Made by a program: the position numbers and the translations under genes. A stretch of DNA of 64,000 bases from Trypanosoma brucei (lineage: Eukaryota): the NCBI GenBank assembly GCA_000002445.1, contig CM000207.1, forward strand, positions 2,560,001-2,624,000, written 5' to 3'. How positions within the stretch are numbered: the first letter of the stretch is position 1; the number at the start of each line of letters is the position of its first letter. Below are positions 5,682 through 58,130 of this stretch, one piece after another. The notes below the pieces were generated by a model. It did no database searches. It saw only the letters and a list, made by a program, of their open reading frames with translations, and was not told where the DNA came from.

Positions 5682-7050
5682 ATGTGGAGACTAAAAGCGT
5701 TAGCAATGCTAATAGCAACAATACCAAGCTCAGCTGCAGCAGCGAAGCAAGAAGCAAACAGACCCCAGTGCGGCAATCCGTGCGGTTGCATGGTGCGCAT
5801 CGACGTGCTGTTGGAAAGGCTGGAAAAAGCGGCAAGCACAGGGGTAGCGAAAATTTCAGGAAACGCAGAAGCAATGCAGCAGCTAGCACTAGGAGCGGCA
5901 AGCACAGACGACAAGGTAGCACGGCTTCTAGCACCATTGCTAGCCGTAGCAACGCACGTAAACGCAGAAGCGACGGCAAAGCTCTCAGCAGCACCGGACA
6001 CGATCGCAAGGGCAACGGCGCTACTAAATAAAAAGAAAGCAGTGCAAGAAGCTAAAAAACGGCTGTACGGTAGCTATGAGGCGGCAATTTTAACGAGAGC
6101 CAGCCACTTCGGCGACGCCACGTACGCGCCGAAGACGCACAAGCAAGCACCGCGGACAGCGTGCGGAGAATTCCAGGACGATGCCTATTTTTCTCTGGAC
6201 GAGCTTAATTTTGACCATGATGCCGGACTAGGCGACTCAAACCTAGGACTAAACGTCAAACAGGCTTGCTACAAAAGCAACCCGGGCTCACCGTGCGACG
6301 CAAGCGGCAGCACCGACAAACTAAGCACAGCAATAACTATAGCGCCCGCGGCAACGGCCACTGCGTCAGGACCACTTGCAGGCGGCAATGAAAAGATCAC
6401 AACGAAGGCAACAATAACACTGGCCAATGAAACTGACGATGAAAAGACGGTACTCAAAGCGGCGCAGACGGCCGAAAAACACCTAACATCAGTGCCAGAC
6501 CTATCAAAGCTAAGCACGTACACGGACAGCACAGCATTCAAATTACTAGTAAACCGATTAGTGATGGGGACAGCAGCAGACAGCCCAATACAAGGAAAGA
6601 TGGCTGAAGAAACGGCCAACTTTATAACCAAAAATTACGGCAAAGACGACGAAGAGTTTACAAAAAACATATGGGAAAAAATAAAAACAGCCACGACAAT
6701 ATACTACGAAGATAAGGCAAAAAACAAAAAAGATCAAAGACCTAACCGAAACCGAACAAGTCACCGCGCTAACACCTGCATTTTTAAAGGCGGACAAAGA
6801 AACGCCAGCAACGATAAAAGAGACAACACCAGCAGGAACAGGAGAAAAACCAGATACAGAAGACAAAACAGAAAAGAAAAACGTGGATAAAAAGGACGAG
6901 GTTTGCACAGGCGCTGAAGAAGGTAAATGTGACAAGACAAAATGCGATTGGAACGCAGAGAAAAAACAGTGCAAAGTTAAAGAGGGGGCAGTTACTATTT
7001 CAGCTGTAATTAAAGCCCCTCTTTTGCTTGCATTTTTGGTTCTAGCTTAA
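5682..7050 (+). pseudogene. VSG with one frameshift in an A-run near 6725
   Basis: Signal-peptide-like start MWRLKALAMLIATIPSSAAAA. After the frameshift the reading continues as ...CTGAEEGKCDKTKCDWNAEKKQCKVKEGAVTISAVIKAPLLLAFLVLA*, a typical Cys-rich C-terminal domain plus hydrophobic GPI signal. The 3'UTR 16-mer lies downstream. Confidence 0.8.
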
Positions 7051-9285: not shown

Positions 9286-10797
9286 ATGATATCATGGCTA
9301 GCGAGGACCGCAATTTTTCTGAGGCTTACGGTGCCAGCGATGCATGCGGCCACAAACCCAGGTGATAACGCCGCAGAGTTCAAGGCGCTTTGCGCAGTCA
9401 TAAAACTAGCGAAAATACAGCCGAGTGACCTGCAGCCTGGGACCGAAGCCGAGAAAGCTCTCAAAGAAATTGAAGTGTTAAACATGTCGGTAGCTGACGA
9501 GAAGTGGCAAAAACAATATGGCGATGGAACAGAAAAGTTTGCTTGGTCAACTTTCGAATCAAAATTAGGAGACACCGACCCCAAAAAACACTGGAAAGAG
9601 AACTGGCAAAACTGGCTTGACACAAAAAAAAGACTGGAAGCCGCAAAAAAAACTGACGAATGGAAACACACCCACCCTGCGCCAGCAAGCTCCGAGGCAA
9701 GGCAAGTAGCATCAAAGCAAATAGCAGCTCTAACAGCGGCAGCGACCAAACTGTACCAAGATTTCAAGACAAAAGCGGACAACCTGAACACAGCTGACAG
9801 AGAGGCAGTAACCTCGGAACTAGCCAAGGCGCTGCACGGAGCAGACAAGGTTACAGCGGAAGGCCAAGTCACACCGCACAAGACGCCCGACGGAGTACGA
9901 AGCGGCACCAGCTGCAACGCCGCAGCTAGCGGCCAGCGCCTGTTAACGGACCTCATGTGCATCTGTGCAGGACAAACACAACTGACAAGCAAAGCGTGCA
10001 CCACGACACCACTCTCAACGGGGTGGACAGGCGGCTTTGGAAACGCTGCCACACAACAAGCGGAACTGGAGGCAAAGTGCGGCACAGGATATCCAGCAGA
10101 TCTAACAGCGGAAAATATAGAGAACGCTGTACATGGCCTCGAAATCTTGGTCGGGCGGCATAGCGGCACCAACAACAAGGGCGGCTACCTCGGCAAAGAC
10201 GCAGGCGCAAATTGCGATGGCACTGACGGCAACATCTGCGCCGACTATACCAACTACTTCAAAGATGCGGCAAACACAGCCGACGCAGAACTACCGTGGG
10301 CGAAACACACGCGACTAGCAGCAACCGCCTTGATAAACAGGGCTAAAAACTTCAGGGCGGCCGAAGGGCTAGCGGAGCGCATTGAAACGATAAAAATACA
10401 GACAGAATCCACTTTCCAACTAACGCAGTTCACATTTCCGACGCAAAAAGCGGAGGCGGCAGAAGAAGAGCTCACCACAAGCAAAAATAAAGACTGCAAT
10501 AATCACAAAACAAACTCAACCTGCACAGAAAATAAATGCAAATGGGAAGGAACAAGTGAAACAGTTGGGGAATGCAAACCTAAAGATGGGGAGAATAAGA
10601 CAAACGCAGCAGGGACAGAAGGAGCTGCAGGAGCAACAAACTCCGAAGCCAAAAAGTGCTCTGAAAAGAAAAAGCAAGAAGACTGCAAAGATGGCTGTAA
10701 GTGGGAGGGAACAGAGTGCAAAGATTCCTCTATTCTAGAAAACAAACAATTTGCCCTGAGTATGGTTTCTTCTGCATTTGTTTCCTTGATTTTCTGA
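9286..10797 (+). CDS. VSG, intact 503-aa ORF
   Basis: N-terminal signal MISWLARTAIFLRLTVPAMHAA. C-terminus ...CKDGCKWEGTECKDSSILENKQFALSMVSSAFVSLIF*. It is preceded about 1.75 kb upstream by 70-bp repeats and followed by the 16-mer. Confidence 0.85.
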   Translation: MISWLARTAIFLRLTVPAMHAATNPGDNAAEFKALCAVIKLAKIQPSDLQPGTEAEKALKEIEVLNMSVADEKWQKQYGDGTEKFAWSTFESKLGDTDPKKHWKENWQNWLDTKKRLEAAKKTDEWKHTHPAPASSEARQVASKQIAALTAAATKLYQDFKTKADNLNTADREAVTSELAKALHGADKVTAEGQVTPHKTPDGVRSGTSCNAAASGQRLLTDLMCICAGQTQLTSKACTTTPLSTGWTGGFGNAATQQAELEAKCGTGYPADLTAENIENAVHGLEILVGRHSGTNNKGGYLGKDAGANCDGTDGNICADYTNYFKDAANTADAELPWAKHTRLAATALINRAKNFRAAEGLAERIETIKIQTESTFQLTQFTFPTQKAEAAEEELTTSKNKDCNNHKTNSTCTENKCKWEGTSETVGECKPKDGENKTNAAGTEGAAGATNSEAKKCSEKKKQEDCKDGCKWEGTECKDSSILENKQFALSMVSSAFVSLIF

Positions 10798-10833
10798 ATT
10801 TTCCACCGCCTTCCTTTAAGAAATTTTGCTATT

Positions 10834-10849
10834 TGATATATTTTGACAC
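10834..10849 (+). promoter_or_regulatory. VSG 3'UTR 16-mer variant
   Basis: tgatatattttgacac. Confidence 0.8.
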
Positions 10850-11192
10850 CTAAAATTTTCCCTGGAAATTTTTTTGTTGGCTGTAAAAAATCTGATTCTG
10901 TGATTTTTTTCTGGAAACTAAAAGAATTTTTTTCAACTATTTTTCTTGAATTTTTTAGGGCTATGTCTTAGTTTTTTTTAATTTCCGTTTCCGCGTTTAG
11001 CGGTTTTTTTGACATTTCTATTTTCGCAACAGCAGTGCCTCAATTTTTTACCCCACTTTCGACTTTCTTTCAATTTTTTGTGTCTTTAGTTTTTTTTAAT
11101 TTTTTTATCTTCACTTTTTTAATTTTTTTTATTTTACATGCCGACAGCAATTTTTTTCGGCAACGAACTTTTTTTTTTTTTGCAGCGGTGGT

Positions 11193-11232
11193 GTTTCGGG
11201 TTAAGGTGTTGAGGGTTAGGGTTAATTTTCCT
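11193..11232 (+). repeat. Degenerate telomere-like (TTAGGG) tract
   Basis: gtttcgggttaaggtgttgagggttagggttaattttcctc, about 400 nt downstream of the VSG stop and preceded by long T-runs. Confidence 0.7.
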
Positions 11233-11699
11233 CTTCCTGCTAATTATTTTTTTACCCCACAGCTCCGTTCTGTATTGCTCCGCTTTTTTTTAATTTTTAT
11301 TCTTTTAGTGACTCAGCGGCTATTTTTTATTTGCAGCAGCAGTGTCAACTCGATTTATTATGTTTTTTTAATTTTTTAAATTTTCTTAATTTTTTTATTC
11401 GTTTTTTTAATTTTTTTCTTAAACAGTGGCGCATGACCTATGGCGCTGCGAGCCGTTTTCTTTTTACACTGGCACGGGGAGTTTTGGTGCTCGAAACGAT
11501 TTGCTTTTTAAGAGACGGTAACGAAAAAATCTTAATATTTGGAAGTGGCAGAATATGGAGTTCGGAAGATAAAGCCAGCCGACATGGCAGCCTGGACTGG
11601 TTGCGGCACGCCACAACAACCTGGCCAAAGCAATCGGATGCGGCGAGCAGTTAACTTGTGCGTCAGCAGGCCAATGCGTGCACATTGCCATGCCGCAAC

Positions 11700-12190
11700 A
11701 AATCCGGCAGCAGATGTAAAGCACCTTAATGCAGGGCTCCATAATCACCACGGGTATAAATTCACCGCAAAAACCAAGCAACAAGCCAACAGTAGAGGAA
11801 CAGAATAAATGTAAAACTCCAGCAAACAAAACAGCAGACGGGTGTGCGGCTATTGAATATGACTATGACTATGATGAAACTTACAAAGAATGCAAACCTA
11901 AATCAGGAAAAGAAAACACATCAACAGGAACAGGGGAGACAAGTACCGGGGTAGACTGCAGTAAACACCAAACCAAGCAAGCCTGTGAAGCTGAAAACAA
12001 GGATGTAAAACCTGGTCAGAAAGCAGTATCTGGATGTATTGAAGATAAGTGTAAAGATTTATTTTTTCTCGTCAGTAAGAATTTTGCTCTGATGGCTGCT
12101 TCTTTTGTGAGCTTGGTACTATTCAAGGATTTTGAATTTTTAAATTTGTTATTTAGAGAGAATTTGATATATTTCAACACCTCTAGATGA
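11700..12190 (+). pseudogene. VSG C-terminal-domain fragment (5'-truncated)
   Basis: ORF 11729..12190 reads ...CKPKSGKENTSTGTGETSTGVDCSKHQTKQACEAENKDVKPGQKAVSGCIEDKCKDLFFLVSKNFALMAASFVSLVLF. The 16-mer follows at 12165. There is no N-terminal domain or signal peptide. Confidence 0.65.
12165..12180 (+). promoter_or_regulatory. VSG 3'UTR 16-mer variant
   Basis: tgatatatttcaacac. Confidence 0.75.
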
Positions 12191-12329
12191 TGATGTGCAA
12201 ATTTTAAAAACACAAAATTATAAAATTATGGTTTCAAATTGGTCCATGGTCGTATCGTACTAATTTTATAAGAATATTAAAAGATTTATAGTGTAATTTG
12301 CTTTATTTTTCTTATTTTATGAACGTTAG

Positions 12330-12420
12330 TTAGGGTTATAATGGTGAGAGTAATAATGATAAAGATAGAGAGTGTTTTAAGTGTGTAAATACGAATATTA
12401 TAATAAAAGTGGTGGTGAAG
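12330..12420 (+). repeat. VSG 70-bp repeat, about 1 unit
   Basis: taataatgataaagatagagagtgttttaagtgtgtaaatacgaatattataataaaag. Confidence 0.8.
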
Positions 12421-19023: not shown

Positions 19024-19095
19024 CAATAATAATAATAAAAATGAAATGAGAGTGTTATGAGTGTGCATATACTAATATTAAAATAAGAGTAGTGT
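19024..19095 (+). repeat. VSG 70-bp repeat, about 1 unit
   Basis: aataataataataaaaatgaaatgagagtgttatgagtgtgcatatactaatattaaaataagag. Confidence 0.8.
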
Positions 19096-20726
19096 ACCTT
19101 TATCACAGTAAATGCAAAAGAGTAGAAATTAAACGAACTGCAACTGAGGAGTGAGTGCGTGGAAGTAAGTGGGAGAGAACTAGAAATATTGTTAAAGGAA
19201 AAGTATAGAGGGGGCGAAATATGTACATGCTCAAAAAAAACATAACTATGGGTGCCATCATACACAAGGAGGTGATAAATGGGAAAGTGTAGAAAAGTAA
19301 AGAGTCAAGTGGACAGGCCAAAGGTGTTACCGAAGAAAATACAAAGGAGGAGTGAAAGTTGGAACTGGCTAAAACCACCATCGCCAAAATGTTTTTAAAA
19401 ACTATTTGAATAATACATTTTTTTCGCTCAAAGCACTGTTATGAATAAAAAGCAATCTAATATAGAGAATGCAGCCGACTACAGCTGTAGGAGCGATCTA
19501 AAAGTACTTCACTCATAAAAAGTAAAAAATTGGATATTCAGCAATAAGGAAAGCGGCTGATGAGTGAGGAAACTTTCTAAAGCGATAATAGTAGCATCAA
19601 ATTTAGAGAGAGTAGCAGAAACCGGAAGCACGCATCGGAATCAAAAAAGACAGAACTGAAACTGTTATTACATCACAAGATAGTGTAGGACTAGACAGCA
19701 TTAGCAGCCCCTATACCCATATAAATTGTAAAACTTATTAAGAGAAGACAATGTTTTCGATGCTTTTTGGATATAAGCATGTAAATATTTTTTAAAACCT
19801 CAAAGGGTAAATTTAAAAGATTATGTACGAATTTACTAACAGCAGTATAATTGAATCTAAATTAAAAAACATATACAAACAAATAGCTGACACTTTGCAT
19901 AAACATTTACTCAAATTAAAGCTTTCTGTATTGTCATGTTTAAGAGAGAACAATGGTAGTGAAGGGAATGGAACTGAGAGAAGCGTCTAGGATGTGCTTG
20001 AAATCCACTGGGCGCAGTAAAAGAGTTACCGAAACTTATTATTTAACATAAAACTGCCGATATTTTTAGTTGAAAGAGCAGCAAGGCAAGCATCTATGTT
20101 CGCCCTGAATTTGTAGGAGAGTTCAAAAAGGGATATAGCATGAGAAGTCAAAAGAAGACAAAGAAAAACTTCCGATCATGCCAGCAAACAACCTAAATAT
20201 TATCCAACTCAAAACAAATGAGCCAGAGCAGCTCGTAACCAAACCAATGCTAGGAGACACAATTACAAAGCTCGTTCATTGAGGCCAGAAAAAGCATTAC
20301 AGTGGAAACCCCGGAGTAAGCATGGGATATTCTGACATGGTCAAACAATTCGAAGCGCACAAACTACTACAACCTGCAGCGTCATCCTTAACGATCCAAT
20401 TGGCTTCGTGGAAATGTCATGCAAGCAGATTTCCTGGTAGGACCGGACGTAAGCAGCGTGTAAAACAATGTCATATTTAGCATAACCAGGTATAACATCC
20501 GATGCAGTCTATTATAAGCAGTTTTTAAAAAAAATGTTTGTAGTGGAAAGTCTATAAAATCCCCGAAAAAAATGCACAATTATGTATAACACCAGAGCGC
20601 AGGCCACCATCGAACGCCCACTGTCAACAGCTGTATAGACAGCTGTTCCGCAAGCCAACCCCAACAGAAAACCCGTACAGTGACGCCACATGAAACTTAT
20701 TGTATACGAACTAGCAAAAAATAGGA

Positions 20727-22150
20727 ATGAAGATCGTACATGTATGCATACATCTTCTACTCGCAACAGCCATAAGCGCTCAAGGATCAATCCATGACGC
20801 AACAGACACCCCTAAAACAGCCTGCCAAGCGAAGGCACAGCTCAAAGCCATGGCTACAAAGTTGGAAGGAGCAGTCAAGACACAAGCTGACCAGATCGCT
20901 GCGGCTTTGCCAAAGTTTTTGCAGCTCTATGCAGCAGCCAGCACCGAAGTACTAACTGGAACCCAGAAACTCATGCTACTGCTGCCAGCCGCCGCAGCAA
21001 ATTTACAAGCAGCTTCAAACAATCTACAGCAATCCCAGACGACGATTCTAGAAGCATCTAGAGCCCTAACAGAACTGGCAGGAGTGCAACAAATGGTAGC
21101 CGAGGCAGGCGCAAGGGAAATAAACGGAAAAAACGCGGCCGTGGCAGCAACTTGGATAGGCGCCGCCGGTATGCAAATAAAGCTGAAAGATCTCAGCGGA
21201 AAACATCCGGAGTGCACTGAGCCATCTCCAAGCACATCAGGTCCCAAGCAGCCGAAAACACTAGTACACAGCACCTATCCAATAACGGTTATACACCTAG
21301 CAGCGGCAGACGACATACAGGCAGGCCAAAACGGTAACGGGCCACGAATCTGCGGACACTCAAGCACAACCCCGGCTCTACAGTGTCAGCTTGACGCACA
21401 AACCAACACAGGCAACCTTCTGCTAACGCCAGGCAAGCTGACAAAGCCATTACAAGCAAACTACCAGCCAGCATCACCGTCAGAAAAGGCGTACAAAGCA
21501 GCGCCAGCAAGAGCAGCCGGCCTGATGCCTCCGCAAAAAACAGTAGAGGAATTGCTAGCCACCCTGCACACAGCAGAAGCTGCAGCAGCGACGCTAACAT
21601 TTAAAGCAAGCGATATTGACCCAGCGCAACTCATTAACGACGCGGAGACGGATCAAGCCCTACTTCAAATACTAAAACCCGGCGAAAAACGGAGCAAAAT
21701 AGGAGACTACACATAGCAAATAAACGAACTCAAAAAAAACTATACGCAACCGACCAAAGTGACAACGCTGAAAAACTCAATAAGGCTTTAGAGTTGACAA
21801 AGACGACGGCGGAAAGCAGTAGCGAGCACAAAACTGAGGCCTTAAATGCTGTAACAGACTTCACTCAACTGGCCGCCTCAACAACACACAATATGTTGGC
21901 CGCAACGAAAAAAAACGCAGCAAGCGAAAAAAGTACACCAAAGAAGAACGAGTATAGCTGCGATGAAAAAGAAAAGGACAAATGCGAAGGCGATTGTCAA
22001 TGGGATAAAAAAGAGGGAAAGTGCAAACCCAAAAGTGGAGAAGAGGAAGTGAAAGCAGGGGATGATGGAAAAACAAACACAAACACCACAGAAAGCAATT
22101 CGTTTCTTATTACCAAGGACCATCTATTGCTTGCATTTTTGCTTTTCTAA
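20727..22150 (+). pseudogene. VSG with a stop separating the N- and C-terminal domains
   Basis: Signal MKIVHVCIHLLLATAISAQG. ORF 20727..21716 ends with a stop. The C-terminal-domain ORF 21794..22150 reads ...CDEKEKDKCEGDCQWDKKEGKCKPKSGEEE...SFLITKDHLLLAFLLF*. Confidence 0.8.
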
Positions 22151-22193
22151 ACAAATTTTCCCCCTCAACTTTCTTAAAGAATTATTGCTACTG

Positions 22194-22209
22194 TGATATA
22201 TTTTAACAC
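22194..22209 (+). promoter_or_regulatory. VSG 3'UTR 16-mer
   Basis: tgatatattttaacac. Confidence 0.85.
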
Positions 22210-22359
22210 CTAAAATCGACCGAGAAATTGTTATTGTTGGCTTCCTGCGCGTGTAAATTTTTTTGTTTCTAAATATTTTTCTCTTTTTTTCTGTTTTTTG
22301 TCTAGCAAAAAAAAGGTAAGAAGGAGGTTATGGAGGGTTTTCCTTGCTCAGAATCAGTC

Positions 22360-22400
22360 TTAGGGGTATGGTTATTTGGGCTAGGGTTAATTTTCCTCTA
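22360..22400 (+). repeat. Degenerate telomere-like (TTAGGG) tract
   Basis: cttaggggtatggttatttgggctagggttaattttcctc. It shares the ending GGGTTAGGGTTAATTTTCCTC with the tract at 11193. Confidence 0.7.
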
Positions 22401-23054
22401 ACTGTTTTTTTTATTTTTTTATTTTTTTATTTAATTGTTTTTTGTTTTTTCTTTTTTTCACTTTTTTTTACAATACGTTGCTAATTTTTTAATTTTTTAA
22501 AAGTGATGCGTACGTCGTTTATCTCCATTTATATGAAATCAATTGAAAATAGCGTTATTTGTTATTTTCTAACAAGTCAATATTTTGTTTTTTGCATTTG
22601 TTTCAGGAAGATTCAAAAAACCTAACATTGTAAAATGTACCATAAAAAACGAAAGTGAAATAAAACGCATTATGCTTCTGAGTTTGATCTTATTACAAAT
22701 TTTGGGTATTCATTGTACATTTTTTAATTACATCACAAACTTGTTGAAAAATAAAATTTAAGCTGCCATATCTATCGGTTACTAAACGTTTCTGTGGTTT
22801 TCAAACACCTTCGTCACAACTTGCATATATGGCTTCCATAAAACTGTGATGATTTAAGTCTACTGAGAAACTGTATAGAAGAATCACCGGTAAATCTATG
22901 ATCTAAGCAGCGCTCAGTAGCTGTTCGTAACATTAAAGATAACAATTAATCTGTTTCCGATTGTACACAAAAAGGTCAAGAACAGGCAAAACATGGTATC
23001 AGCGGCTGTAGTAGCTTTTTTTAACGCTTCCGACAGCCAGATCAGTGAACACTA

Positions 23055-24431
23055 ATGCTCGGGCCTTTTCAGTTTTTTTTCGAAACCTACAGGATTACTT
23101 TGAAACAAGTAACAAAAGAGGTGTTCAGCGATCTACCGCAAAAGCCTTTAACAGAAGAACTAAACGACTTGCAAATGGTAACTTTACAGGGCAAAAATTT
23201 CACAAACGCAACGCACGGCGAGTTCTCAACACCAATTGCCTGGGCCAAGAAAAAAAGCGAACTCTTAAGAGCAAAACCTGGCACACCCACACACAAACAG
23301 CTAAAACGTTACAGCGAAACGAAGCTAACAGCGGTCATAAACGACAGGATTATGCCCCTACAACAAGAAGCCAAAACAGTATCAGACAAATATGACAAGG
23401 CCAACAGCGACGTAAACCAAGCAGTGATCGATGCCAACACGTTCCTGAAAGCAGCCCGCAACGGCGCAAACGATACAGCAGACGACGCACAAGCCGCATT
23501 CGACACGAGGGACAAAGCATGCGCAACGGCAGACGGCAGCTCAGCGGGCAAATCGATAGTGTCGGACGTAGCATGCCCCTGCAGCGGAACCGGTGCATCA
23601 AACCTATGCTACAACGGCAACAGCAATACAGACTACGCCAGCGGTGCTACGGCAGCAGAGGCGCTAACAGCATGGTGTGCAGTAAAAGCGACATGCAAAG
23701 CGCAGGGGCAACAGCAGGTCCCAACGGGCGCCCAAATCACCGCAACTATTTCGGCACTCGAAAGACACCTTGGAGCGGACGCCACGGGCGTCGATGCCAC
23801 GACAATACTCGGAGGCGGGACTTCAGCTAACTGCAACGGTGGAACGGGCGTGGCAAACGCGTGCGTCGACTACAAGAAACGGATGTCAGGGCACGGCATA
23901 GCTGGGATCCCATGGGTTCAGAATTTGCTGCAAGCAGCGCAAGCCTTACAAAGAGGCAGACAAGCGACTGCAGAGTTGAAAGAAAGTGCAGCCGCTATGA
24001 AATCGATCACAGCAAGTGCATGGAGACTACACGATATGCTAGCAGCCAACGAGATGATAAACACTGAAGCCAAGCAAGGAGAACAAAAAGTAAGTGATAA
24101 AAAAGTAGACGAGTGCATTTCAGCAGGAGACGACACCGCTAAATGCAATTCGGCCAAAGGAAAGGGATGTACTTTTAACGAAAAAGGAGAAGAGGGAGAA
24201 AAGTGTGAGTTGAAAAAGGAAGTAATAGAATCTCTAAAAGAAGAAAACCAAGAAGGCAAAGATGGGAAGAAAGAGGAGAAATGTGCAGGGAAGGAGCAAG
24301 GAGACTGCGAGAAAGCTACTTGCTGCAAATGTAAAAATAATGCTTGTAAAAATTCCAGTATTCTTGTAAATAATAAATTTACATTGAGTGATGCTGCCTA
24401 TATGGGTTTGGTGGCATTTTTAGAATTCTAA
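23055..24431 (+). CDS. VSG-like 458-aa ORF with an atypical N-terminus (no signal peptide) and an atypical C-terminal tail; possibly a 5'-truncated pseudogene
   Basis: An in-frame TGA lies 9 nt upstream of the ATG. MLGPFQFFFETYRITLKQ... is not a signal peptide. There is no 70-bp repeat upstream. The C-terminal domain ...CKCKNNACKNSSILVNNKFTLSDAAYMGLVAFLEF* has D and E residues within the hydrophobic tail. Confidence 0.6.
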   Translation: MLGPFQFFFETYRITLKQVTKEVFSDLPQKPLTEELNDLQMVTLQGKNFTNATHGEFSTPIAWAKKKSELLRAKPGTPTHKQLKRYSETKLTAVINDRIMPLQQEAKTVSDKYDKANSDVNQAVIDANTFLKAARNGANDTADDAQAAFDTRDKACATADGSSAGKSIVSDVACPCSGTGASNLCYNGNSNTDYASGATAAEALTAWCAVKATCKAQGQQQVPTGAQITATISALERHLGADATGVDATTILGGGTSANCNGGTGVANACVDYKKRMSGHGIAGIPWVQNLLQAAQALQRGRQATAELKESAAAMKSITASAWRLHDMLAANEMINTEAKQGEQKVSDKKVDECISAGDDTAKCNSAKGKGCTFNEKGEEGEKCELKKEVIESLKEENQEGKDGKKEEKCAGKEQGDCEKATCCKCKNNACKNSSILVNNKFTLSDAAYMGLVAFLEF

Positions 24432-24514: not shown

Positions 24515-24530
24515 TGATATATTTTAACTC
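24515..24530 (+). promoter_or_regulatory. VSG 3'UTR 16-mer variant
   Basis: tgatatattttaactc. Confidence 0.75.
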
Positions 24531-24689: not shown

Positions 24690-24800
24690 TATGAATTTTA
24701 GGGGTTATAGTCGTGATAATAATAACAAAACAAAAACAATCATAGTAATATGGTAATTTTAATAATTATTATGGAATTGTGTTTTGGGTGTGTATCACTA
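24690..24800 (+). repeat. Degenerate 70-bp-repeat-like sequence
   Basis: gtgataataataacaaaacaaaaacaatcatagtaatatggtaattttaataattattatggaattgtgttttgggtgtgtatcactattgtgg. Confidence 0.45.
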
Positions 24801-27062: not shown

Positions 27063-28134
27063 AGAATTTTAATTTTAATTTTCTTCGTGCCTTCGTGGGA
27101 GTTTCCCCCCACTGGCGCGGCCATCAGCCATCACCGTAGAGCCCTGAGATGCTATCGGTCTGGCGACTGTGGCAGAGTCTCCCTTTTTTTATTCATCCTA
27201 ATACACCCTCTATAATTTTTGTTGTAGCTCCGCAGTTGAACGGAATACAGCAGATGGGGCGAAAAGCCTCCCACTCCGGACTCTCCAAAAGATGTCAATT
27301 AGCAATCCTTTTGTTTTGATTTTTGTTATTCGTTTATTATTCTCTCCCCCTCTTTCTGTTCCTGTTGCTTGTTGACTGCATACCCCCTCTGTCTCTGAGG
27401 GTGTATGGACTATTCCTGCGTCCGGTGCTTTTCCTGCTAGCTCCACACTCGGCAATAAGGGGGGAAGTTGCAGAAAGGAAAGTGGGTTGTATAACTGTTA
27501 CCTTAGGTGAGGACTTCACCTGCAGCCGGCTCCGTTCAACCGCAATGAGAAACTGCGCCAGCCTTTTAGAGAAACATACATCCTGCACACACACACACAC
27601 ACACACCTTCCACCGCAAACCTGACACGTAACTCCTTCAAACTGGGACAGCTCATCAAGTGCAGCGACGTTTCTTCGAAGTCGCCGCGTTGGATGGTAAC
27701 AGCGCGCTCTACCTTCATACCGTGCATCTTCTTTTGATGTAGGGTGAGGCCAGTTTTGCTAGCACACTGCCTTCCGCATGTCGGGCACACCAACATGGAT
27801 GTGTTTGTATGCGGGGAATCAGTGGCACACAATTTTGTGCTTTTGCTGCATTTAAGCTCGACTCCCTCACCTTTGTGGAAAGCCTTACAGTGTCGGATGA
27901 GGGAGTCCCTGCAACTGAGCACTTTTTGACACACACCACACTGCACCTCGCCTTTCCCCGGGACGTCAACATTTCCCCCACGGGCACGCTTACGAGGGAA
28001 TTGCAACACCACTACGGTACCGTCCTCCGTCACTATGCTCTTATGTTTGAATTTCTTGTGTAGTGACAGGGAAGAACGTGTACCGAAGCTCGCCTCGCAC
28101 AGGTCACATTGAAACGGCAGCTTCCGTGTATCCT
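27063..28134 (-). mobile_element. ingi 3' fragment (about 1.07 kb; zinc-finger region to poly(A)-like tail)
   Basis: It is the reverse complement of ingi from ...aggatacacggaagctgccgtttcaatgtgacctg... to the 3' end. A T-rich tail (aattttaattttaatttt) sits at the low-coordinate end. The minus-strand ORF 27566..28189 reads ...RKLPFQCDLCEASFGTRSSLSLHKKFKH... Confidence 0.88.
27586..27608. repeat. (CA/GT)n microsatellite expansion inside the ingi fragment
   Basis: The fragment has cacacacacacacacacac where the full copies have gtgagtgtgtgc. Confidence 0.8.
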
Positions 28135-31100
28135 CCCTGGTGATGCTGGTCACATCAACGTGGTGCCAGGATCCAGTACCCCGTATCATCGGGTGAAGCC
28201 AAGAGCCAGCAGCGTTCCTTTCATGGGGAACACTGCTGTGCTCTGGCTACGGCATCATACAGCACAGGGATCAGCAGCGTCTTGCTGGGACACCGTTTTT
28301 CATTTGTCGGTCCCTGGGCACGTGGCTAGCGTGCCATCAGCAGTATCATCCGCACTAAGATGCTGCTGTCCGGTGATGTGGAAGAGAATCCCGGCCCGTC
28401 GTTGCGCGGGATGCAGTGGAACTGCGCCGGGCTATCTCAAGGAAAGAGATTAGCACTCCACAAAACCCTTGTTGATGAGCGGATCGCCTTTTGTCTGTTG
28501 AGCGAGACAAGGATGACGCCTGGAGAGGCGGCTTTCTTTAGCGTTGCTGGCTACCAACATCACGGAATAGCTCGTAACTGCAAAGGAGGTGGTGTATCAA
28601 TACTAATGAGGGAGGACCTACCAGTCGAGACCGGTATGGCCGTTGTTGGTCGCATTGAACGAGTGCATGCAACAATTCACCCTGCACGTGGAACGGCGCT
28701 GACTGTCACGTCGGCATACATCCCACCAAAACACACCTTCACGGCAACTGACCTAGATACGCTTCTGACAACTGACGGTGCCCAGCTCATCGGTGCAGAC
28801 GCTAACGCACACGCGTTGGCATGGGATCGCGCGAGCCCACCAAATACCAAGGGTGAAACCCTCACACAGTGGTGCATTGACAACCAGTTTCTGGTATGTA
28901 ACACTGGTGAGTGCACCAGGTACACGCGCCACCACGGGGAGTCCACCCCTGATGTGACACTGTCAAGGAATTTCACAGTGTACACGTGGACATCGCTGTA
29001 TTCTCCCGATAGCGATCACCATAACATATTTTTCGACGTTATCGTTGGAGACGACACAGATGCACTGAGTTGCCCGCGGCTTCGAAAGCCCATGTACGCA
29101 TGGCTAAAAGCTAACTGGAGGAATTTCCGTCTCAAGGTTGACGAGCTCTGCAGGAAAATTGGTAGAGAGAAGAATGTCAACACTCTGGAACAGAAATTGA
29201 GCTCCGCCATCCGCACTGCGACGAATGTCTCCGTCCCCCGTGGCTGCAGAGCAACGCCACCACATTGGACACCTGCGCTCGCGAAAATCGATGAAGAGAT
29301 CGCTGGATGCGCACCCTCCCACCGAAGGGAAAAGTTGGTAGCCACGCGTAAGCAGATCCTGGACCGTACCACAAAGAAGAGATGGAGCACGCTATGCTCC
29401 AGACTTGCGGTGTCAGACTGCTGCAGTTGGCACATTGTCAAGAAGGTATATGCGCCACGACCACTAACCACACTGGCTGTACTTGTTGATAACGCGGCCA
29501 TCACGGACTACCATCAAGCTGAGAGGTTCAGTAAACTGTACTCGTCCCGTGCAAGAAGGCACCCCGACTCACACCCACCGGCACCAATAAAGACGATAGC
29601 GAGTGAGTTCAGCCCCATCACGATGGCTGAACTATGGAGATCGATCAAACTGCTTCCGACCGGATCCGCAGCAGGACCTGATTGCTTATACAACGAGGCA
29701 ATACAACATCTCGGTAGAACAGCGCTGAATGTTGTTCTGAGGCTATTCAATGAGAGCCTACGAACGGGAGTCGTGCCGCGTGCATGGAAGACTGGTGTTA
29801 TCATCCCCATCCTGAAGGCCGGAAAAAAGGCGGAGGACCTCGATTCTTACAGGACTGTGACGCTCACGAGCTGTCTCTGCAAAGTCATGGAACGCATAAT
29901 TGCCGCGAGGCTTAGAGACACTGTTGAGTCCCAGCTGACGCCGCAGCAATCAGGCTTTCGCCCCGGATGCTCAACGCTCGAACAACTCCTGCACGTCCGC
30001 GCTGCCCTCTGCCGCCCTACGCACCAATATCGTACGGGTGCTGTATTCGTTGACTACGAGAAGGCATTCGATACAGTAGACCACGACAAAATTGCGAGGG
30101 GAATGCACAGAATGAAGGTATCACCCCACATTGTGAAGTGGTGCGTATCATTTCTGAGTAACCGAACTGGCAGAGTGAGATTCAAGGAGAAGCTTTCCAG
30201 AAGCAGAACATTTGAGCGAGGAGTGCCACAAGGAACTGTCCTTGGCCCAATCATGTTCATTATTGTCATGAACTCGTTGAGCCAACGCCTTGCAGAAGTG
30301 CCGTTACTGCAGCACGGATTCTTTGCAGACGACCTGACGCTACTTGCGAGGCACACAGAGAGGGATGTCATCAACCACGCACTACAATGCGGCCTCAACG
30401 TGGTGTTACAGTGGTCAAAAGAGTACTTCATGTCTGTCAACGTAGCGAAAACGAAGTGCACACTCTTCGGGTGTATAGAGCGCCACCCCCTTACATTGCA
30501 ACTGGACGGCGAAAGAATAGGAGCTGACAGGATACCGAAGCTTCTAGGAGTAACATTCCAGTGTCAGCAGGGGATGGCAACACATGCGGCCGAAACGAGA
30601 CGCAAGATGGACTTCCGACTACTGCAGATAGTGTCCATCTCAGCTTCTACATGGGGGCCAAGACGACAAGTGCTGAGAGCTTTTTATCTAGCACTCGTAC
30701 AGGCACACACCATGTATGGCATTAAGGTATGGTACTGGGACGCTTCGGAACGAAGTCGTGACCTCCTTGCATCAGCACAACACAAAGCCAGTCGCATCAT
30801 AGCCGGCATACCGCATGGGACGCGCAAAGAGGACTCTCTGCTGGAAGCAAACCTCCTGCCACTCAAGACGGCCACTCTTGTGCACAGCATGAAATTCATG
30901 CTGATGTGTGAGTCACGAGGCGGATGCTTGCGGCGCAGTGCTGAAGAAGCATACCACAGCAAACACCCAGTCAGAGCCCAACATTCCCGCATCATGCGGT
31001 CCTATCCACACCTCCGCATTGAGCCACGCGAGCACCCACTAGAGACACCGACGCTCCGCCACAGCTGCCGACCGCTATTTCACACGCAGATAAAGCCTGT

Positions 31101-33388
31101 GTGCGCTGATGACCCTGACGATGTCAAAAGGGAGGCTTCCGAAAAGTGGATTGAACGGCATTTTTCACGGAGGGGGAAGGAGCTACCGCGGCGAGAGCAC
31201 TACGAATTGTGGACTGATGGATCCGTGTCCCTCGGTGAGAAGTCCGGAGCAGCTGCCCTGCTCTATAGAAACAATACGCTTATTTGTGCACCTAAAACCG
31301 GAGCAGGGGAACTCTCATGCAGTTACAGAGCGGAATGCGTAGCATTAGAGATAGAACTGCAACGGCTGCTGAAATGGCTTCCGGCATACAGAAGCACACC
31401 TAGCAGGTTGTCCATCTTCTCTGACTCGCTGTCAATGTTAACAGCACTGCGGACAGGCCCCCTAGCCGTAACGGACCCAATTCTAAGACGACTATGGAGG
31501 CTTCTGCTTCAAGTTCAGAGAAGGAAGATACGTATCCGACTTCAATTTGTGTTTGGCCATTGTGGCGTGAAACGGAATGAAGTTTGTGATGAGATGGCCA
31601 AAAAGGCCGCTGATTTACCACAGTTGCGAGACACATGGATCCCCGACATCATTGCTTATGCGAAGCGAGTGCTTAAGTCGGAAGAAGTCCATGAGAACAC
31701 TCATAGGTTTGGTATCACGGGCAACCACTTTCCAACAAAGCATAAAGAAGAACTGACGAGGGAAGAAGAAACGGCACTGGCACGCTTTCGGGTTGGGTCT
31801 TCAAGGCACTATGGATGGATGTTGCGAAAGATTAACCCGAGTGTGCCTCCACAGTGCCGATGGTGTAACCCGCAACATGCAGCGATAGGACCAACAATAC
31901 AAACAGCCCCAACTGTTGCGACACGCACTCTTCAAAGAACCTCCGAACCGACCAAATGTACGGAATGTGATGCCACATACCAATGCCGCTCGAGTACTGT
32001 AACGCACATGGTAAACAAACATGGCTTTGTGCGAGCTGATGCCCTCCGGAGGATCAAATACGGCGATGCAACACCTGCAGTGGATATCCCCCCGGAGCCC
32101 CCTCCAGTGGTGGCGATCGTTCCTCTACCATCGAGCACACGAGTCCCGATGAGACCGCAGGTACTTCATTGTACCATCTGTGCCTCCAAATTCGCAGTGC
32201 CAGGCCGACTATTACACCACCTTAGAACAATACATGGTATAGGCAGCGGTAGTTGCCGCGTGAAAAGGGGGCGAGAGAACGAGGACTCAGTGCAAGGAGA
32301 TGGTAGAGCCCCAGCAGCGCCAGTCTCTCAGGATACACGGAAGCTGCCGTTTCAATGTGACCTGTGCGAGGCGAGCTTCGGTACACGCTCTTCCCTGTCA
32401 CTACACAAGAAATTCAAACATAAGAGCATAGTGACGGAGGACGGTACCGTAGTGGTGGTGCAATTCCCTCGTAAGCGTGCCCGTGAGGGAAACGTTGACG
32501 CCACTGGGAAAGGAGAGGTGCAGTGTGGTGTGTGTCAAAAAGTGCTCAGTTGCAGGGACTCCCTCATCCGACATTGTAAGGCTTTTCACAAAGGTGAGGG
32601 AGTCGAGCTTAAATGCAGCAAAAGCACAAAATTTTGTGCCACTGATTCCCCGCATACAAACACATCCATGTTGGTGTGCCCGACATGCGGAAGGCAGTGT
32701 GCTAGCAAAACTGGCCTCACCCTACATCAAAATAAGATGCACGGTATGAAGGTAGAGCGCGCTGTTACCAGCCAACGCGGCGACTGCGAAGAAACGTCGC
32801 TGCACTTGATGAGCTGCCCCGGTTTGAAGGAGTTACGTGTCAGGTTTGCGGTAGAAGGTGAGTGTGTGCAGGATGTATGTTTCTCTAAAAGGCTGGCGCA
32901 GTTTCTCATTGCGGTTGAACGGAACCTGCCGCAGGTGAAGTCCTCACCTAAGGTAACAGTCATACAACCCACTCTCCCTTCTGCAACTTCCCCCCTTATT
33001 GCCGAGTGTGGAGCTAGCAGGAAAAGCACCGGACGCAGGAATAGTCCAGACACCCTCAGAGACAGAGAGGGTATGCAGTCAACAAGCAACAGGAACAGAA
33101 AGAGGGGGAGAGAATAATAAACGAATAACAAAAATCAAAACAAAAGGATTGCTAATTGACATCTTTTGGAGAGTCCGGAGTGGGAGGCTTCTCGCCCCAT
33201 CTGCTGTATTCCGTTCAACTGCGGAGCTACAACAAAAATTATAGAGGGTGTATTAGGCCGAAAAAAAAAGGGAGACTCTGCCACAGTCGCCAGACCGATA
33301 GCATCTCAGGGCTCTACGGTGATGGCTGATGGCCGCGCCAGTGGGGGGAAACTCTCACGAAGGCACGAAGAAAATTCAAGAAAAAAAT
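28135..33388 (+). mobile_element. ingi, full length (about 5.25 kb)
   Basis: The 5' end ccctggtgatgctggtcacatcaacgtggtgccagg... is the RIME/ingi 5' terminus. There is a single long ORF. The 3' end is ...cacgaaggcacgaagaaaattcaagaaaaaaa. No TSD is detectable. Confidence 0.9.
28360..33117 (+). CDS. ingi polyprotein ORF, uninterrupted 1585 aa: 2A-like leader, AP-endonuclease, reverse transcriptase, RNase H, four C2H2 zinc fingers
   Basis: MLLSGDVEENPGP (2A-like D-x-E-x-NPGP). Endonuclease-like WNCAGL...LSETRM. RT motifs FRPGCSTLEQLL, FVDYEKAFDTVDHD and FADDLTLLA. RNase H motif WTDGSVSLGEKSGAAA. Fingers HCTICASKF...HHLRTIH, FQCDLCEASF...HKKFKH, VQCGVCQKVL...RHCKAFH and CPTCGRQC...LHQNKMH. Confidence 0.9.
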   Translation: MLLSGDVEENPGPSLRGMQWNCAGLSQGKRLALHKTLVDERIAFCLLSETRMTPGEAAFFSVAGYQHHGIARNCKGGGVSILMREDLPVETGMAVVGRIERVHATIHPARGTALTVTSAYIPPKHTFTATDLDTLLTTDGAQLIGADANAHALAWDRASPPNTKGETLTQWCIDNQFLVCNTGECTRYTRHHGESTPDVTLSRNFTVYTWTSLYSPDSDHHNIFFDVIVGDDTDALSCPRLRKPMYAWLKANWRNFRLKVDELCRKIGREKNVNTLEQKLSSAIRTATNVSVPRGCRATPPHWTPALAKIDEEIAGCAPSHRREKLVATRKQILDRTTKKRWSTLCSRLAVSDCCSWHIVKKVYAPRPLTTLAVLVDNAAITDYHQAERFSKLYSSRARRHPDSHPPAPIKTIASEFSPITMAELWRSIKLLPTGSAAGPDCLYNEAIQHLGRTALNVVLRLFNESLRTGVVPRAWKTGVIIPILKAGKKAEDLDSYRTVTLTSCLCKVMERIIAARLRDTVESQLTPQQSGFRPGCSTLEQLLHVRAALCRPTHQYRTGAVFVDYEKAFDTVDHDKIARGMHRMKVSPHIVKWCVSFLSNRTGRVRFKEKLSRSRTFERGVPQGTVLGPIMFIIVMNSLSQRLAEVPLLQHGFFADDLTLLARHTERDVINHALQCGLNVVLQWSKEYFMSVNVAKTKCTLFGCIERHPLTLQLDGERIGADRIPKLLGVTFQCQQGMATHAAETRRKMDFRLLQIVSISASTWGPRRQVLRAFYLALVQAHTMYGIKVWYWDASERSRDLLASAQHKASRIIAGIPHGTRKEDSLLEANLLPLKTATLVHSMKFMLMCESRGGCLRRSAEEAYHSKHPVRAQHSRIMRSYPHLRIEPREHPLETPTLRHSCRPLFHTQIKPVCADDPDDVKREASEKWIERHFSRRGKELPRREHYELWTDGSVSLGEKSGAAALLYRNNTLICAPKTGAGELSCSYRAECVALEIELQRLLKWLPAYRSTPSRLSIFSDSLSMLTALRTGPLAVTDPILRRLWRLLLQVQRRKIRIRLQFVFGHCGVKRNEVCDEMAKKAADLPQLRDTWIPDIIAYAKRVLKSEEVHENTHRFGITGNHFPTKHKEELTREEETALARFRVGSSRHYGWMLRKINPSVPPQCRWCNPQHAAIGPTIQTAPTVATRTLQRTSEPTKCTECDATYQCRSSTVTHMVNKHGFVRADALRRIKYGDATPAVDIPPEPPPVVAIVPLPSSTRVPMRPQVLHCTICASKFAVPGRLLHHLRTIHGIGSGSCRVKRGRENEDSVQGDGRAPAAPVSQDTRKLPFQCDLCEASFGTRSSLSLHKKFKHKSIVTEDGTVVVVQFPRKRAREGNVDATGKGEVQCGVCQKVLSCRDSLIRHCKAFHKGEGVELKCSKSTKFCATDSPHTNTSMLVCPTCGRQCASKTGLTLHQNKMHGMKVERAVTSQRGDCEETSLHLMSCPGLKELRVRFAVEGECVQDVCFSKRLAQFLIAVERNLPQVKSSPKVTVIQPTLPSATSPLIAECGASRKSTGRRNSPDTLRDREGMQSTSNRNRKRGRE

Positions 33389-43852: not shown

Positions 43853-44038
43853 TGATTTCTGAGTTGTCTTTCCTTGTCCGGTAGTTTGTCAAGGTGGAGG
43901 AAATTAGCGGTATTTGATTTCTTGGGCTGCATCTAGTTTGTGGTGCTAATTTATTATGGTTGTAGCTGTGTGAAGATAGCTTTCCGTTCAGACACACGCT
44001 AGTTTAAATTCTCTGGTTGGTTTTTTCTGCGGGTTATC

Positions 44039-44050
44039 TTTGTTTGAAGC
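44039..44050. repeat. 12-bp target-site duplication, left copy (TTTGTTTGAAGC)
   Basis: It is identical to 49309-49320, immediately after the ingi poly(A). Confidence 0.85.
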
Positions 44051-57019: not shown

Positions 57020-57100
57020 AACAATATTAGTATATACACACCTACAAAACACTCCTATTATTGCCATTATTATTGCTACTATCATTATCCTAATAAATAC
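57020..57100 (-). repeat. VSG 70-bp repeat (minus), about 1 unit
   Basis: Reverse complement of aacaatattagtatatacacacctacaaaacactcctattattgccattattattgctactatcattatc. Confidence 0.75.
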
Positions 57101-57700: not shown

Positions 57701-58047
57701 GGGACGGATCTGGAAGTCGTTCCTTAACTGCTGATCGTAATAATCTCCTAGCTTCGAATAACTCTCTTTTTAGATTATTTATGCTTTAAAAGCAATTCGT
57801 TTCGCGCAGCTACACTGCCACGCGCCAGCGTTAAAAACATATATTTTTAAGCCTGGCGCAACTCGAAATGCAGACCGGAAATTCACAAAAGAATAAAAAG
57901 TAGTATCGTAACAATGTAGAAATAAAATAAATAGGTGAAAAATGTGAAGGAAAAGTTGCCTACTCTCTGAAGAACCGCAAGCCATAATATAAAAAATAGC
58001 CGCTGCATCATTATTAAAAAATTTAAAAAGGTGAAAAGGAAAAAGTA

Positions 58048-58130
58048 ACCCTAACCGCATGACCCTAATCCTAAGCCTAAGTCTGGAAATCCTCTCTAAC
58101 CTCCCTAACCCCTACAACTAACCTACCTTC
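58048..58130 (-). repeat. Degenerate telomere-like (CCCTAA = TTAGGG on minus) tract
   Basis: ccctaaccgcatgaccctaatcctaagcctaagtctgg...ctaacctccctaacccctac. On the minus strand the reverse complement of 58028-58053 reads ggttagggttactttttcc.., similar to the GGGTTAGGGTTAATTTTCC junction of the plus-strand tracts. Confidence 0.7.

What the first reader, a model, noticed from the sequence alone, without database searches (positions are those of the whole stretch)
22150..24431. Recurring module 3 of 3: telomere-like tract followed by a 458-aa VSG ORF with no signal peptide and no 70-bp repeat
The tract at 22360-22400 shares the GGGTTAGGGTTAATTTTCCTC ending. The next VSG (23055-24431) has an in-frame stop 9 nt before its ATG and a non-hydrophobic N-terminus (MLGPFQFFFETYRITLKQ...). 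It lacks an upstream 70-bp repeat but has a complete C-terminal domain and 16-mer. It looks like a VSG missing its first roughly 30-50 codons. This fits the pattern of 5'-truncated VSG pieces after telomere-like tracts.
Basis: partly seen in the sequence, partly recalled or inferred. Interest (0 to 1): 0.55.

Follow-up and report, generated by a model that had tools for sequence, protein, structure and literature searches.

The report
Frameshifted VSG pseudogene after telomere-like flank
The gene is an ordinary, already catalogued trypanosome surface-coat pseudogene (VSG 773) whose start and signal peptide are present but knocked out of frame by two one-base slips, and the "telomere-like tract" before it is a known kind of sequence that trails the neighbouring upstream coat gene.

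Summary
The window is a Trypanosoma brucei subtelomeric VSG array.

The reading "VSG missing its first 30-50 codons" is wrong. The ORF is 457/458 identical to UniProt M4SVA3, "VSG 773". Its closest relative, VSG 1799, shows that the start codon and signal peptide lie upstream at 22993, in two other frames. Removing one T from a T7 run (23016-23022) and one from a T8 run (23073-23080) gives a continuous 478-aa VSG. The open ORF lacks only about 21-28 residues relative to full-length relatives. A nearly invariant N-terminal cysteine is also lost. This is a full-length, frameshifted array pseudogene.

The tract (22326-22398) belongs to the 3' flank of the upstream VSG pseudogene (20727-22150). 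It is homologous to two other tracts in the window, each following a VSG in the sense direction. It fits the published "TTAGGG-like repeats 3' of telomere-proximal VSGs".

What was lost here is VSG 773's upstream flank with its 70-bp repeat, not coding sequence. Ordinary; low interest.

The parts
20727..22150 (+). Upstream VSG ('VSG-X'), an A-type VSG pseudogene. The N-terminal ORF 20727-21716 ends at a premature TAA (21714-21716). The frame then shifts to 21794-22150, which encodes the C-terminal domain and a GPI-signal-like tail (...NSFLITKDHLLLAFLLF).
   Evidence: 83% identical to 'VSG 1125.1803' and 37% to 'VSG 771', which carries PF00913. The C-terminal ORF matches the C-termini of many VSGs, down to E=2.8e-10. 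Its own 70-bp repeat lies at 19025-19096.
22151..22209 (+). 3' UTR of VSG-X: short and CU-rich (TTTTCCCCCTC), with TTGCTACT and a perfect 16-mer at 22194-22209.
   Evidence: It is homologous to the 3' UTRs at 10798-10882 (77%) and to 58314-58264 on the minus strand.
22210..22325 (+). T-rich spacer, including TTCCTGCGCGTGTAAATTTT, which is shared with the minus-strand module.
   Evidence: Alignment A2. blastn aligns 22194-22422 with 58264-58013, E=4e-13.
22326..22398 (+). Degenerate TTAGGG-like tract, G-strand in the sense direction, ending in TAGGGTTAATTTTCCTC.
   Evidence: (TTAGGG)12 blastn gives E=0.008, and only two other tracts in the window have E<1. It is 75% identical over 59 nt to 11195-11253. 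All three copies share a 2-3 nt insertion in the same repeat unit.
22399..22500 (+). Oligo-T/A tract (TTTTTTTATTTTTTTATTT...), the last part shared with the other modules.
   Evidence: blastn hits only to 11059-11135 and 11284-11423 in module 1.
22501..22992 (+). AT-rich 5' flank of VSG 773, unique within the window, with no 70-bp repeat.
   Evidence: No blastn match elsewhere in the window and no 70-bp profile hit. The 595 nt from tract end to ATG is shorter than any 70-bp-repeat-to-start-codon distance measured in the window, which are about 665-1753 nt.
22993..24431 (+). Full-length VSG 773 pseudogene with a B-type N-terminal domain. The ATG is at 22993. Frame A is 22993-23022 (MVSAAVVAFF), frame B is 23018-23080 (FLTLPTARSVNTNARAFSVFF) and frame C is the open ORF 23055-24431.
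   Evidence: Pfam VSG_B E=5.8e-34 and Trypan_glycop_C E=1.8e-14. The ORF matches UniProt M4SVA3 'VSG 773' in all but one residue, Q146K.
23016..23022 (+). First frameshift site, a T7 run (+1 relative to VSG 1799).
23073..23080 (+). Second frameshift site, a T8 run (+1). This stretch also replaces the nearly invariant N-terminal cysteine (..SVLCAAY.. in relatives, ..SVFFETY.. here).
   Evidence: In alignment A3 the cysteine column is conserved in at least 90% of rows, and VSG 773 is the exception.
24515..24530 (+). 16-mer of the VSG 773 3' UTR, with one mismatch (TGATATATTTTAACTC). The UTR is of the long 'TTTATGA..' type and is followed by a degenerate 70-bp repeat at about 24740-24800.
   Evidence: weak hit 24760-24796. 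There is homology to 57034-57667 on the minus strand.
11195..11233 (+). Paralogous TTAGGG-like tract of module 1. It follows the intact 503-aa VSG at 9286-10797 and precedes the C-terminal-only fragment at 11729-12190.
58046..58111 (-). Paralogous TTAGGG-like tract of the minus-strand module. It follows the intact 550-aa VSG at 58315-59967 and precedes a C-terminal-only fragment at about 57403-57669.

Best explanation
The region holds two adjacent silent VSG cassettes in a T. brucei subtelomeric array.

(1) Positions 22993-24431 are a full-length B-type VSG pseudogene, catalogued as Lister 427 'VSG 773'. Its start codon and signal peptide are present. Two +1 frameshifts within the first ~30 codons, at a T7 and a T8 run, leave a 458-aa ORF that starts at an internal, fortuitous ATG. 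A conserved N-terminal cysteine has also been lost. The gene cannot make a secreted coat protein on its own. By inference from the published behaviour of array pseudogenes, its only likely use is as a donor of internal segments for segmental gene conversion (mosaic VSGs).

(2) The 'telomere-like tract' does not introduce this gene. It is part of a conserved 3' flank of the upstream VSG pseudogene (20727-22150). That flank consists of a short CU-rich UTR with the 16-mer, a T-rich spacer, degenerate TTAGGG-like repeats and an oligo-T tract. [quoted passage not shown]

(3) The flank is joined directly to sequence about 500 nt upstream of the VSG 773 start. That junction removed the normal upstream flank of VSG 773, including its 70-bp repeat. 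By inference, a VSG copy with a telomere-type 3' flank was placed into the array by recombination. The downstream end of that event fell at a non-homologous position: upstream of VSG 773 here, and inside the downstream VSG in the other two modules.
For: Identity: the ORF matches UniProt M4SVA3 'Variant surface glycoprotein 773' in 457 of 458 residues.

Frameshifts: the N-terminus of VSG 1799 is found upstream in two other frames. tblastn gives E=3e-7 for residues 10-29, and MVSAAVVAFF aligns with MLLAALVPFF at the start codon. Deleting one T from each of T7 and T8 gives a 478-aa ORF. That ORF aligns colinearly from the first residue with ten relatives. Its hydrophobic core scores 2.57, like VSG 1799 at 2.70.

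Offset: in an exhaustive HMMER search (168 hits), ORF residues 4-12 align with residues 25-36 of full-length relatives.

Frame confirmation: the independent UniProt sequence reads FQFFFE through the T8 run in the same frame, so that run length is reproduced at least modulo 3.

No 70-bp repeat.

Tract: it is one of only three hits with E<1 to (TTAGGG)12 in 64 kb. All three are in sense orientation and start 176-398 nt after a VSG stop codon. The three are homologous to one another, share an insertion and share the junction TAGGGTTA(A/C)TTTT(T)CCT. All three follow the same short CU-rich type of 3' UTR, whereas the other nine 16-mer sites have a long UTR; most of these are followed by a 70-bp repeat hit a few hundred nt downstream.

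[quoted passage not shown] The VSG-to-telomere distance in expression sites is 200-1590 nt (PMC2567434). Only 346 of 2634 subtelomeric VSGs in Lister 427 are predicted fully functional (PMC8445201). Array pseudogenes serve as mosaic donors (PMC3708902; PMC12137147).
Against: The first frameshift (T7) has no independent sequence confirmation, and long-read assemblies are prone to indels (PMC8445201). No T. brucei DNA outside the window could be fetched: five look-ups failed. Three things therefore could not be checked directly: the DNA of VSG 1799, the sequences of real telomeric 3' flanks, and the Aline & Stuart sequences. The tract is only 68% like TTAGGG repeats, and two stricter statistics were not significant. 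The recombination history in point (3) is inference only. Use of VSG 773 as a mosaic donor was not tested.
Confidence: 0.85

Rival explanations
1. One reading: the gene is a genuinely 5'-truncated VSG fragment lacking about 30-50 codons of DNA, joined to a telomere-like tract.
For: The ORF lacks a signal peptide and has an in-frame stop just upstream. The Pfam VSG_B match starts only at profile position 95. The other two modules do carry truncated, C-terminal-only pieces.
Against: The missing codons are present upstream in two other frames and are colinear with VSG 1799 from its Met1. Full-length relatives show an offset of only 21-28 residues. The late Pfam start is a local-alignment effect.
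Confidence: 0.03
2. VSG 773 is an intact 478-aa gene, and both frameshifts are homopolymer errors in the assembly.
For: Both shifts are +1 and sit in T7 and T8 runs. Indels are the commonest long-read error, and error correction repaired more than 500 genes in Lister 427 (PMC8445201).
Against: The independently deposited protein M4SVA3 differs from the window at one residue, so it is a separate sequence. It starts at the same internal Met and reads through the T8 run in the same frame. Even after repair, the nearly invariant first cysteine of the B-type N-terminal domain is missing, and the C-terminal region carries two extra cysteines.
Confidence: 0.08
3. The three tracts are independent fossil telomeres. 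In each case a chromosome end carrying a telomeric VSG was extended by capturing distal array sequence, for example by break-induced replication from a short telomere.
For: The G-strand orientation and the distance from the VSG are as at real telomeres. The downstream partner begins at a different, non-homologous position in each module.
Against: The three tracts share the same degenerate pattern, the same 2-3 nt insertion and the same distal junction to ATTTTCCT plus oligo-T. This argues for copies of one pre-existing conserved flank rather than three separate decays of perfect repeats. A single ancestral event followed by duplication is not excluded.
Confidence: 0.15
4. The tract is a chance G/T-rich stretch with no relation to telomeres.
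For: It is only 68% identical to TTAGGG repeats. The ungapped 36-nt scan and the hexamer-cluster count do not exceed shuffled sequence.
Against: The only three hits with E<1 in 64 kb all fall at the same place relative to a VSG 3' UTR, in the same orientation, and are homologous to each other.
Confidence: 0.03

Closest known systems
Full-length VSG pseudogenes of T. brucei subtelomeric arrays (Lister 427 VSGnome; entry 'VSG 773', UniProt M4SVA3)
   Same: Same protein in all but one residue. It has a B-type N-terminal domain, a C-terminal domain and a 3' 16-mer. Like most array VSGs (2288 of 2634 not predicted functional, PMC8445201), it is disabled by frameshifts.
   Different: Nothing essential. 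The database entry shows only the 458-aa open part. Whether the upstream out-of-frame start is annotated in the genome resource could not be checked.
'TTAGGG-like' repeats 3' of telomere-proximal VSGs (Aline & Stuart 1989, as cited in PMC3708902)
   Same: Degenerate TTAGGG-like repeats, G-strand in the sense direction, a few hundred nt downstream of a VSG 3' UTR. The distance falls roughly within the 200-1590 nt reported between expression-site VSGs and telomere repeats.
   Different: Here the tract is internal to an array. It is followed by an oligo-T tract and another VSG, not by perfect telomere repeats and a chromosome end. No sequence comparison with the published flanks was possible.
VSG gene fragments (C-terminal-only pieces) in arrays
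   Same: The two sister modules carry such fragments after the same kind of tract, also without a 70-bp repeat.
   Different: VSG 773 has its whole coding region and about 500 nt of its own 5' flank. Only the 70-bp repeat region is missing.
Interstitial telomere-like repeats next to variant-antigen genes or at subtelomeric block boundaries (P. knowlesi SICAvar/pir islands, PMC9131526; human subtelomeric duplicon boundaries, from my own knowledge)
   Same: Telomere-like repeats lie inside chromosomes beside contingency gene families. They are usually read as footprints of exchange involving chromosome ends.
   Different: Different organisms and repeat units. Here the tract is a short (about 70 nt), strongly degenerate piece of a conserved gene flank.

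Membership tests
T. brucei VSG gene (B-type) | B-type N-terminal domain (Pfam PF13206) | tested here: met
   E=5.8e-34, residues 62-316. 168 VSG homologues found by HMMER.
T. brucei VSG gene (B-type) | VSG C-terminal domain (PF10659) | tested here: met
   E=1.8e-14, profile positions 3-104 of 104.
T. brucei VSG gene (B-type) | Conserved 16-mer in the 3' UTR | tested here: met
   24515-24530, 15/16 match.
T. brucei VSG gene (B-type) | 70-bp repeat upstream (recombination cassette boundary) | tested here: not met
   No profile hit between 19096 and 24760 at E<=10.
Functional (intact) VSG, criteria of PMC8445201 | Signal peptide in frame with the mature protein | tested here: not met
   The signal-peptide codons at 22993-23054 lie in two other frames. 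The ORF N-terminus is not hydrophobic.
Functional (intact) VSG, criteria of PMC8445201 | Size 400-600 aa with start and stop codons | tested here: met
   458-aa ORF, or 478 aa after repair.
Functional (intact) VSG, criteria of PMC8445201 | GPI-anchor signal | tested here: inconclusive
   The tail NSSILVNNKFTLSDAAYMGLVAFLEF resembles those of relatives but carries D and E in the hydrophobic part. No GPI predictor was available.
Functional (intact) VSG, criteria of PMC8445201 | Conserved N-terminal-domain cysteines | tested here: not met
   The first cysteine, conserved in at least 90% of aligned relatives, is replaced by F. The others are present.
5'-truncated VSG fragment | DNA for the 5' part of the coding region is absent | tested here: not met
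   The 5' codons are present from the homologous ATG at 22993.
TTAGGG-like repeats 3' of telomere-proximal VSGs | Degenerate TTAGGG repeats, G-strand in sense, downstream of a VSG 3' UTR | tested here: met
   22326-22389, starting 176 nt after the stop codon at 22150. Paralogous tracts follow two other VSGs.
TTAGGG-like repeats 3' of telomere-proximal VSGs | The gene is telomere-proximal, followed by perfect repeats and a chromosome end | tested here: not met
   The tract is followed by an oligo-T tract and VSG 773, and the array continues for more than 40 kb.
TTAGGG-like repeats 3' of telomere-proximal VSGs | Sequence homology to published telomeric VSG 3' flanks | not testable with these tools
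   No T. brucei DNA collection was available, and Aline & Stuart 1989 is not held.
True telomere repeat array | Tandem perfect TTAGGG hexamers | tested here: not met
   68% identity over 68 nt. No 36-nt window reaches 24/36 matches.

The most novel reading that the evidence does not exclude
The module seen three times in 64 kb is [VSG with a short 'expressed-type' UTR, TTAGGG-like tract, oligo-T, then a downstream VSG cut at an arbitrary point and lacking a 70-bp repeat]. It may be a general footprint of telomere-to-array transfer. In this reading, breaks in an array are repaired by copying a telomeric VSG together with its telomere-adjacent flank, and the far end is sealed by microhomology. 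That would be one route by which arrays gain fresh intact VSGs. The same process would create C-terminal-only fragments and VSGs without 70-bp repeats. The interstitial tracts could also act as ready-made seeds for new telomeres directly behind a VSG.
Probability: 0.25. Interest if true: 0.45.

Novelty: already known. Interest (0 to 1): 0.15.

Why it matters
The finding itself matters little. It corrects a misreading: the gene is frameshifted, not truncated. It also shows that an ORF-only view of VSG archives understates how much 5' coding sequence is available as donor material for mosaic genes. The side observation may be more useful. Telomere-type 3' flanks sit inside an array, each followed by a VSG that lost its own 70-bp repeat. 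If a genome-wide census confirmed this, it would give a simple sequence marker for tracing how VSGs move between telomeres and arrays.

Tried and rejected
Five attempts to fetch T. brucei DNA by exact protein look-up all returned nothing: VSG 773, VSG 1799, the window ORF, and the two intact VSGs of the sister modules. No DNA-level comparison with VSG 1799 or with real telomeric flanks was therefore possible.

An ungapped 36-nt scan for (TTAGGG)n found no window with at least 24/36 matches, and shuffled sequence reached 20-24. Counting clusters of perfect telomere hexamers gave 5 clusters, against a mean of 1.7 and a maximum of 5 in shuffles, which is not decisive. A gapped blastn and the paralogue alignments were used instead.

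The first word-indexed homologue search returned only 3 proteins. The exhaustive HMMER search was needed to measure the offset.

Pfam gave no N-terminal-domain hit for the upstream VSG. A homologue search identified it.

Cross et al. 2014 and Marcello & Barry 2007 are not held. The stored copy of Table S4 of PMC8445201 is cut before any VSG-773 row. Searches for 'interstitial telomere', 'telomere-like' and '29-bp' with VSG found nothing on array-internal tracts.

Rejected ideas: the tract as an upstream element of VSG 773, since homology places it in the flank of the preceding gene; and head-to-head telomere fusion, since all pieces are in direct orientation.
Full report
**Context.** The window is a Trypanosoma brucei subtelomeric VSG array. 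It holds twelve copies of the VSG 3'-UTR 16-mer within two mismatches, against 0.05 expected by chance. It also holds many 70-bp repeats and ORFs with the Pfam VSG A-type, B-type and C-terminal domains. VSGs lie on the + strand from about 5 to 27 kb and on the - strand from about 50 to 64 kb. Ingi-type retrotransposons lie between them.

**Checking the observation.**
- The ORF at 23055-24431 encodes 458 aa.
- An in-frame TGA sits at 23046-23048.
- The N-terminus MLGPFQFFFE has a best 10-residue hydropathy of 0.79, against 1.6-2.9 for intact VSGs.
- A profile built from eight of the window's own 70-bp repeat copies finds nothing between 19096 and 24760, even at E<=10.
- The C-terminal domain is complete (PF10659, E=1.8e-14).
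- The 16-mer at 24515-24530 has one mismatch.
- The tract exists, but its ending matches the quoted 21-mer at 20 of 21 positions. Its telomere likeness is weak, at 68% over 68 nt for 22326-22389.

**What the gene is.** The ORF is UniProt M4SVA3, 'Variant surface glycoprotein 773' of T. brucei, differing at one residue (Q146K). Its closest relative is VSG 1799, at 78% identity. VSG 1799 begins MLLAALVPFFLTLPTARSANANAQAFSVLCAAYRITLQEV.

Three-frame translation upstream of the ORF shows the matching residues. An ATG at 22993 opens MVSAAVVAFF in one frame. A second frame reads LTLPTARSVNTNARAFSV. The ORF frame then continues with ETYRITLKQV.

tblastn confirms this. Residues 10-29 of VSG 1799 hit the second frame with E=3e-7, and residues 1-10 align at the ATG. 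Deleting one T from the T7 run (23016-23022) and one from the T8 run (23073-23080) gives a continuous 478-aa ORF from 22993 to 24431. That ORF has a hydrophobic N-terminus scoring 2.57. It aligns colinearly with ten relatives from the first residue.

An exhaustive HMMER search found 168 homologues. In the best full-length ones, ORF residues 4-12 align with their residues 25-36, so the open ORF is about 21-28 residues short. The late start of the Pfam match, at profile position 95, is a local-alignment effect.

. The gene is therefore a degenerate, full-length, frameshifted pseudogene.

**Could the frameshifts be assembly errors?** Both lie in homopolymers, and long-read assemblies of this strain needed indel correction (PMC8445201). 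However, the independently deposited VSG 773 protein starts at the same internal Met. It reads FQFFFE through the T8 run in the same frame, so the second shift is reproduced. The first shift (T7) has no independent support. I give the 'really intact' reading 0.08.

**What the tract is.** A gapped search with (TTAGGG)12 gives only three hits with E<1 in 64 kb:

| Tract | Strand | E-value | Distance from preceding VSG stop codon |
|---|---|---|---|
| 58111-58046 | - | 8e-6 | 204 nt |
| 22326-22389 | + | 0.008 | 176 nt |
| 11195-11224 | + | 0.02 | 398 nt |

Each has the G-rich strand in the sense direction of the VSG before it.

The three are homologous to one another. They share a 2-3 nt insertion in the same repeat unit. 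They also share the distal junction TAGGGTTA(A/C)TTTT(T)CCT, followed by an oligo-T tract. The homology starts in the 3' UTR of the preceding gene.

All three preceding genes have the short CU-rich type of UTR. The other nine 16-mer sites in the window have a long 'TTTATGAAATTTATGAAA' type of UTR, and most are followed by a 70-bp repeat hit a few hundred nt downstream. So the tract belongs to the 3' flank of the upstream gene.

Here that gene is an A-type VSG pseudogene at 20727-22150. It is 83% identical to VSG 1125.1803 and carries a premature stop and a frameshift.

[quoted passage not shown] It also reports 200-1590 nt between expression-site VSGs and the telomere repeats (PMC2567434). The tract fits that description, except that it lies inside an array.

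**The junction.** Homology to the sister modules ends at about 22422, or about 22500 if the oligo-T tract is included. Positions 22501-22992 are unique in the window. The distance from the tract to the VSG 773 start is 595 nt. The nine measurable distances from a 70-bp repeat to a start codon in the window are about 665-1753 nt.

So VSG 773 keeps its coding region and about 500 nt of its own 5' flank, but lost the part that would hold its 70-bp repeat. In the two sister modules the downstream partner is cut much deeper. These are C-terminal-only fragments at 11729-12190 (PF10659 E=7.5e-15) and at about 57403-57669 on the minus strand.

**Mechanism.**
- Shown: two adjacent silent cassettes; a disabled but full-length gene; a conserved telomere-type flank on the upstream gene; a missing 70-bp repeat.
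- Inferred: a VSG copy with a telomere-proximal-type 3' flank entered the array by recombination, and its downstream end was resolved without homology. T. brucei repairs breaks mainly by homology and microhomology (title of PMC2377438, listed; the paper was not read).
- Inferred from literature: VSG 773 can contribute only as a donor for segmental gene conversion. This is documented for array pseudogenes in general (PMC3708902; PMC12137147). It was not tested for this gene.

**Novelty and score.** The gene is catalogued. Frameshifted VSG pseudogenes are the majority class: only 346 of 2634 subtelomeric VSGs are predicted functional (PMC8445201). TTAGGG-like repeats behind VSGs are described. 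I rate it already known, interest 0.15.

One item is possibly worth a census. Three array-internal telomere-type flanks occur here, each followed by a VSG or VSG piece without its own 70-bp repeat. I found no description of this in the searchable literature.

Noticed in passing
window 10834-10849, 22194-22209 and 58249-58264(-), versus 7110, 12165, 15816, 18838, 24515, 42268(-), 50849(-), 57286(-), 63514(-): There are two classes of VSG 3' end. Three genes have a short CU-rich UTR (TTTCCCCCTC..TTGCTA..16-mer) followed by a T-rich spacer and a TTAGGG-like tract. The other nine have a long UTR, many with TTTATGAAATTTATGAAA; most are followed by a 70-bp repeat hit a few hundred nt downstream. Two of the three short-UTR genes are intact ORFs.
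   Followed up: partly
window 11286-11572 and 58029-57724(-): The two sister modules share about 300 nt more of weakly conserved sequence (59% identity, E=4e-8) beyond the tract, including CTGGC.CG..G...GAAACGA(A)TTGCTTTT(T)AAG. The module in this finding lacks it. Its nature is unknown.
   Followed up: no
window 20-4502(+), 28360-33117(+), 44017-49032(+); fragments 27566-28189(-) and 37607-38323(-): Ingi-type non-LTR retrotransposons (endonuclease, reverse transcriptase, RNase H, C2H2 zinc fingers). Two have long open ORFs of 1585 and 1671 aa. They sit in the zone where VSG orientation switches from + to -.
   Followed up: partly
window 20727-21716(+) and 5574-6890(+): Two VSG-array ORFs (329 and 438 aa) have no Pfam VSG N-terminal-domain hit even at E<=1. 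The first is nevertheless 83% identical to an EATRO 1125 VSG and 37% to an A-type VSG. This suggests a divergent A-type subgroup that the Pfam model covers poorly. The second was not identified.
   Followed up: partly
protein P0153 (VSG 1125.1803), compared with window 22062-22196: The deposited 476-aa 'VSG 1125.1803' ends in an out-of-frame reading of a C-terminal domain (..MEKQTQTPQEAILLSL..). This matches the window's wrong-frame ORF at 22062-22196. That database protein is therefore itself a frameshifted pseudogene translation.
   Followed up: no
window 12329-12338: A short perfect GTTAGGGTTA sits at the 5' edge of the 70-bp repeat after the module-1 fragment. It is probably part of the repeat's variable region or a chance match.
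   Followed up: no
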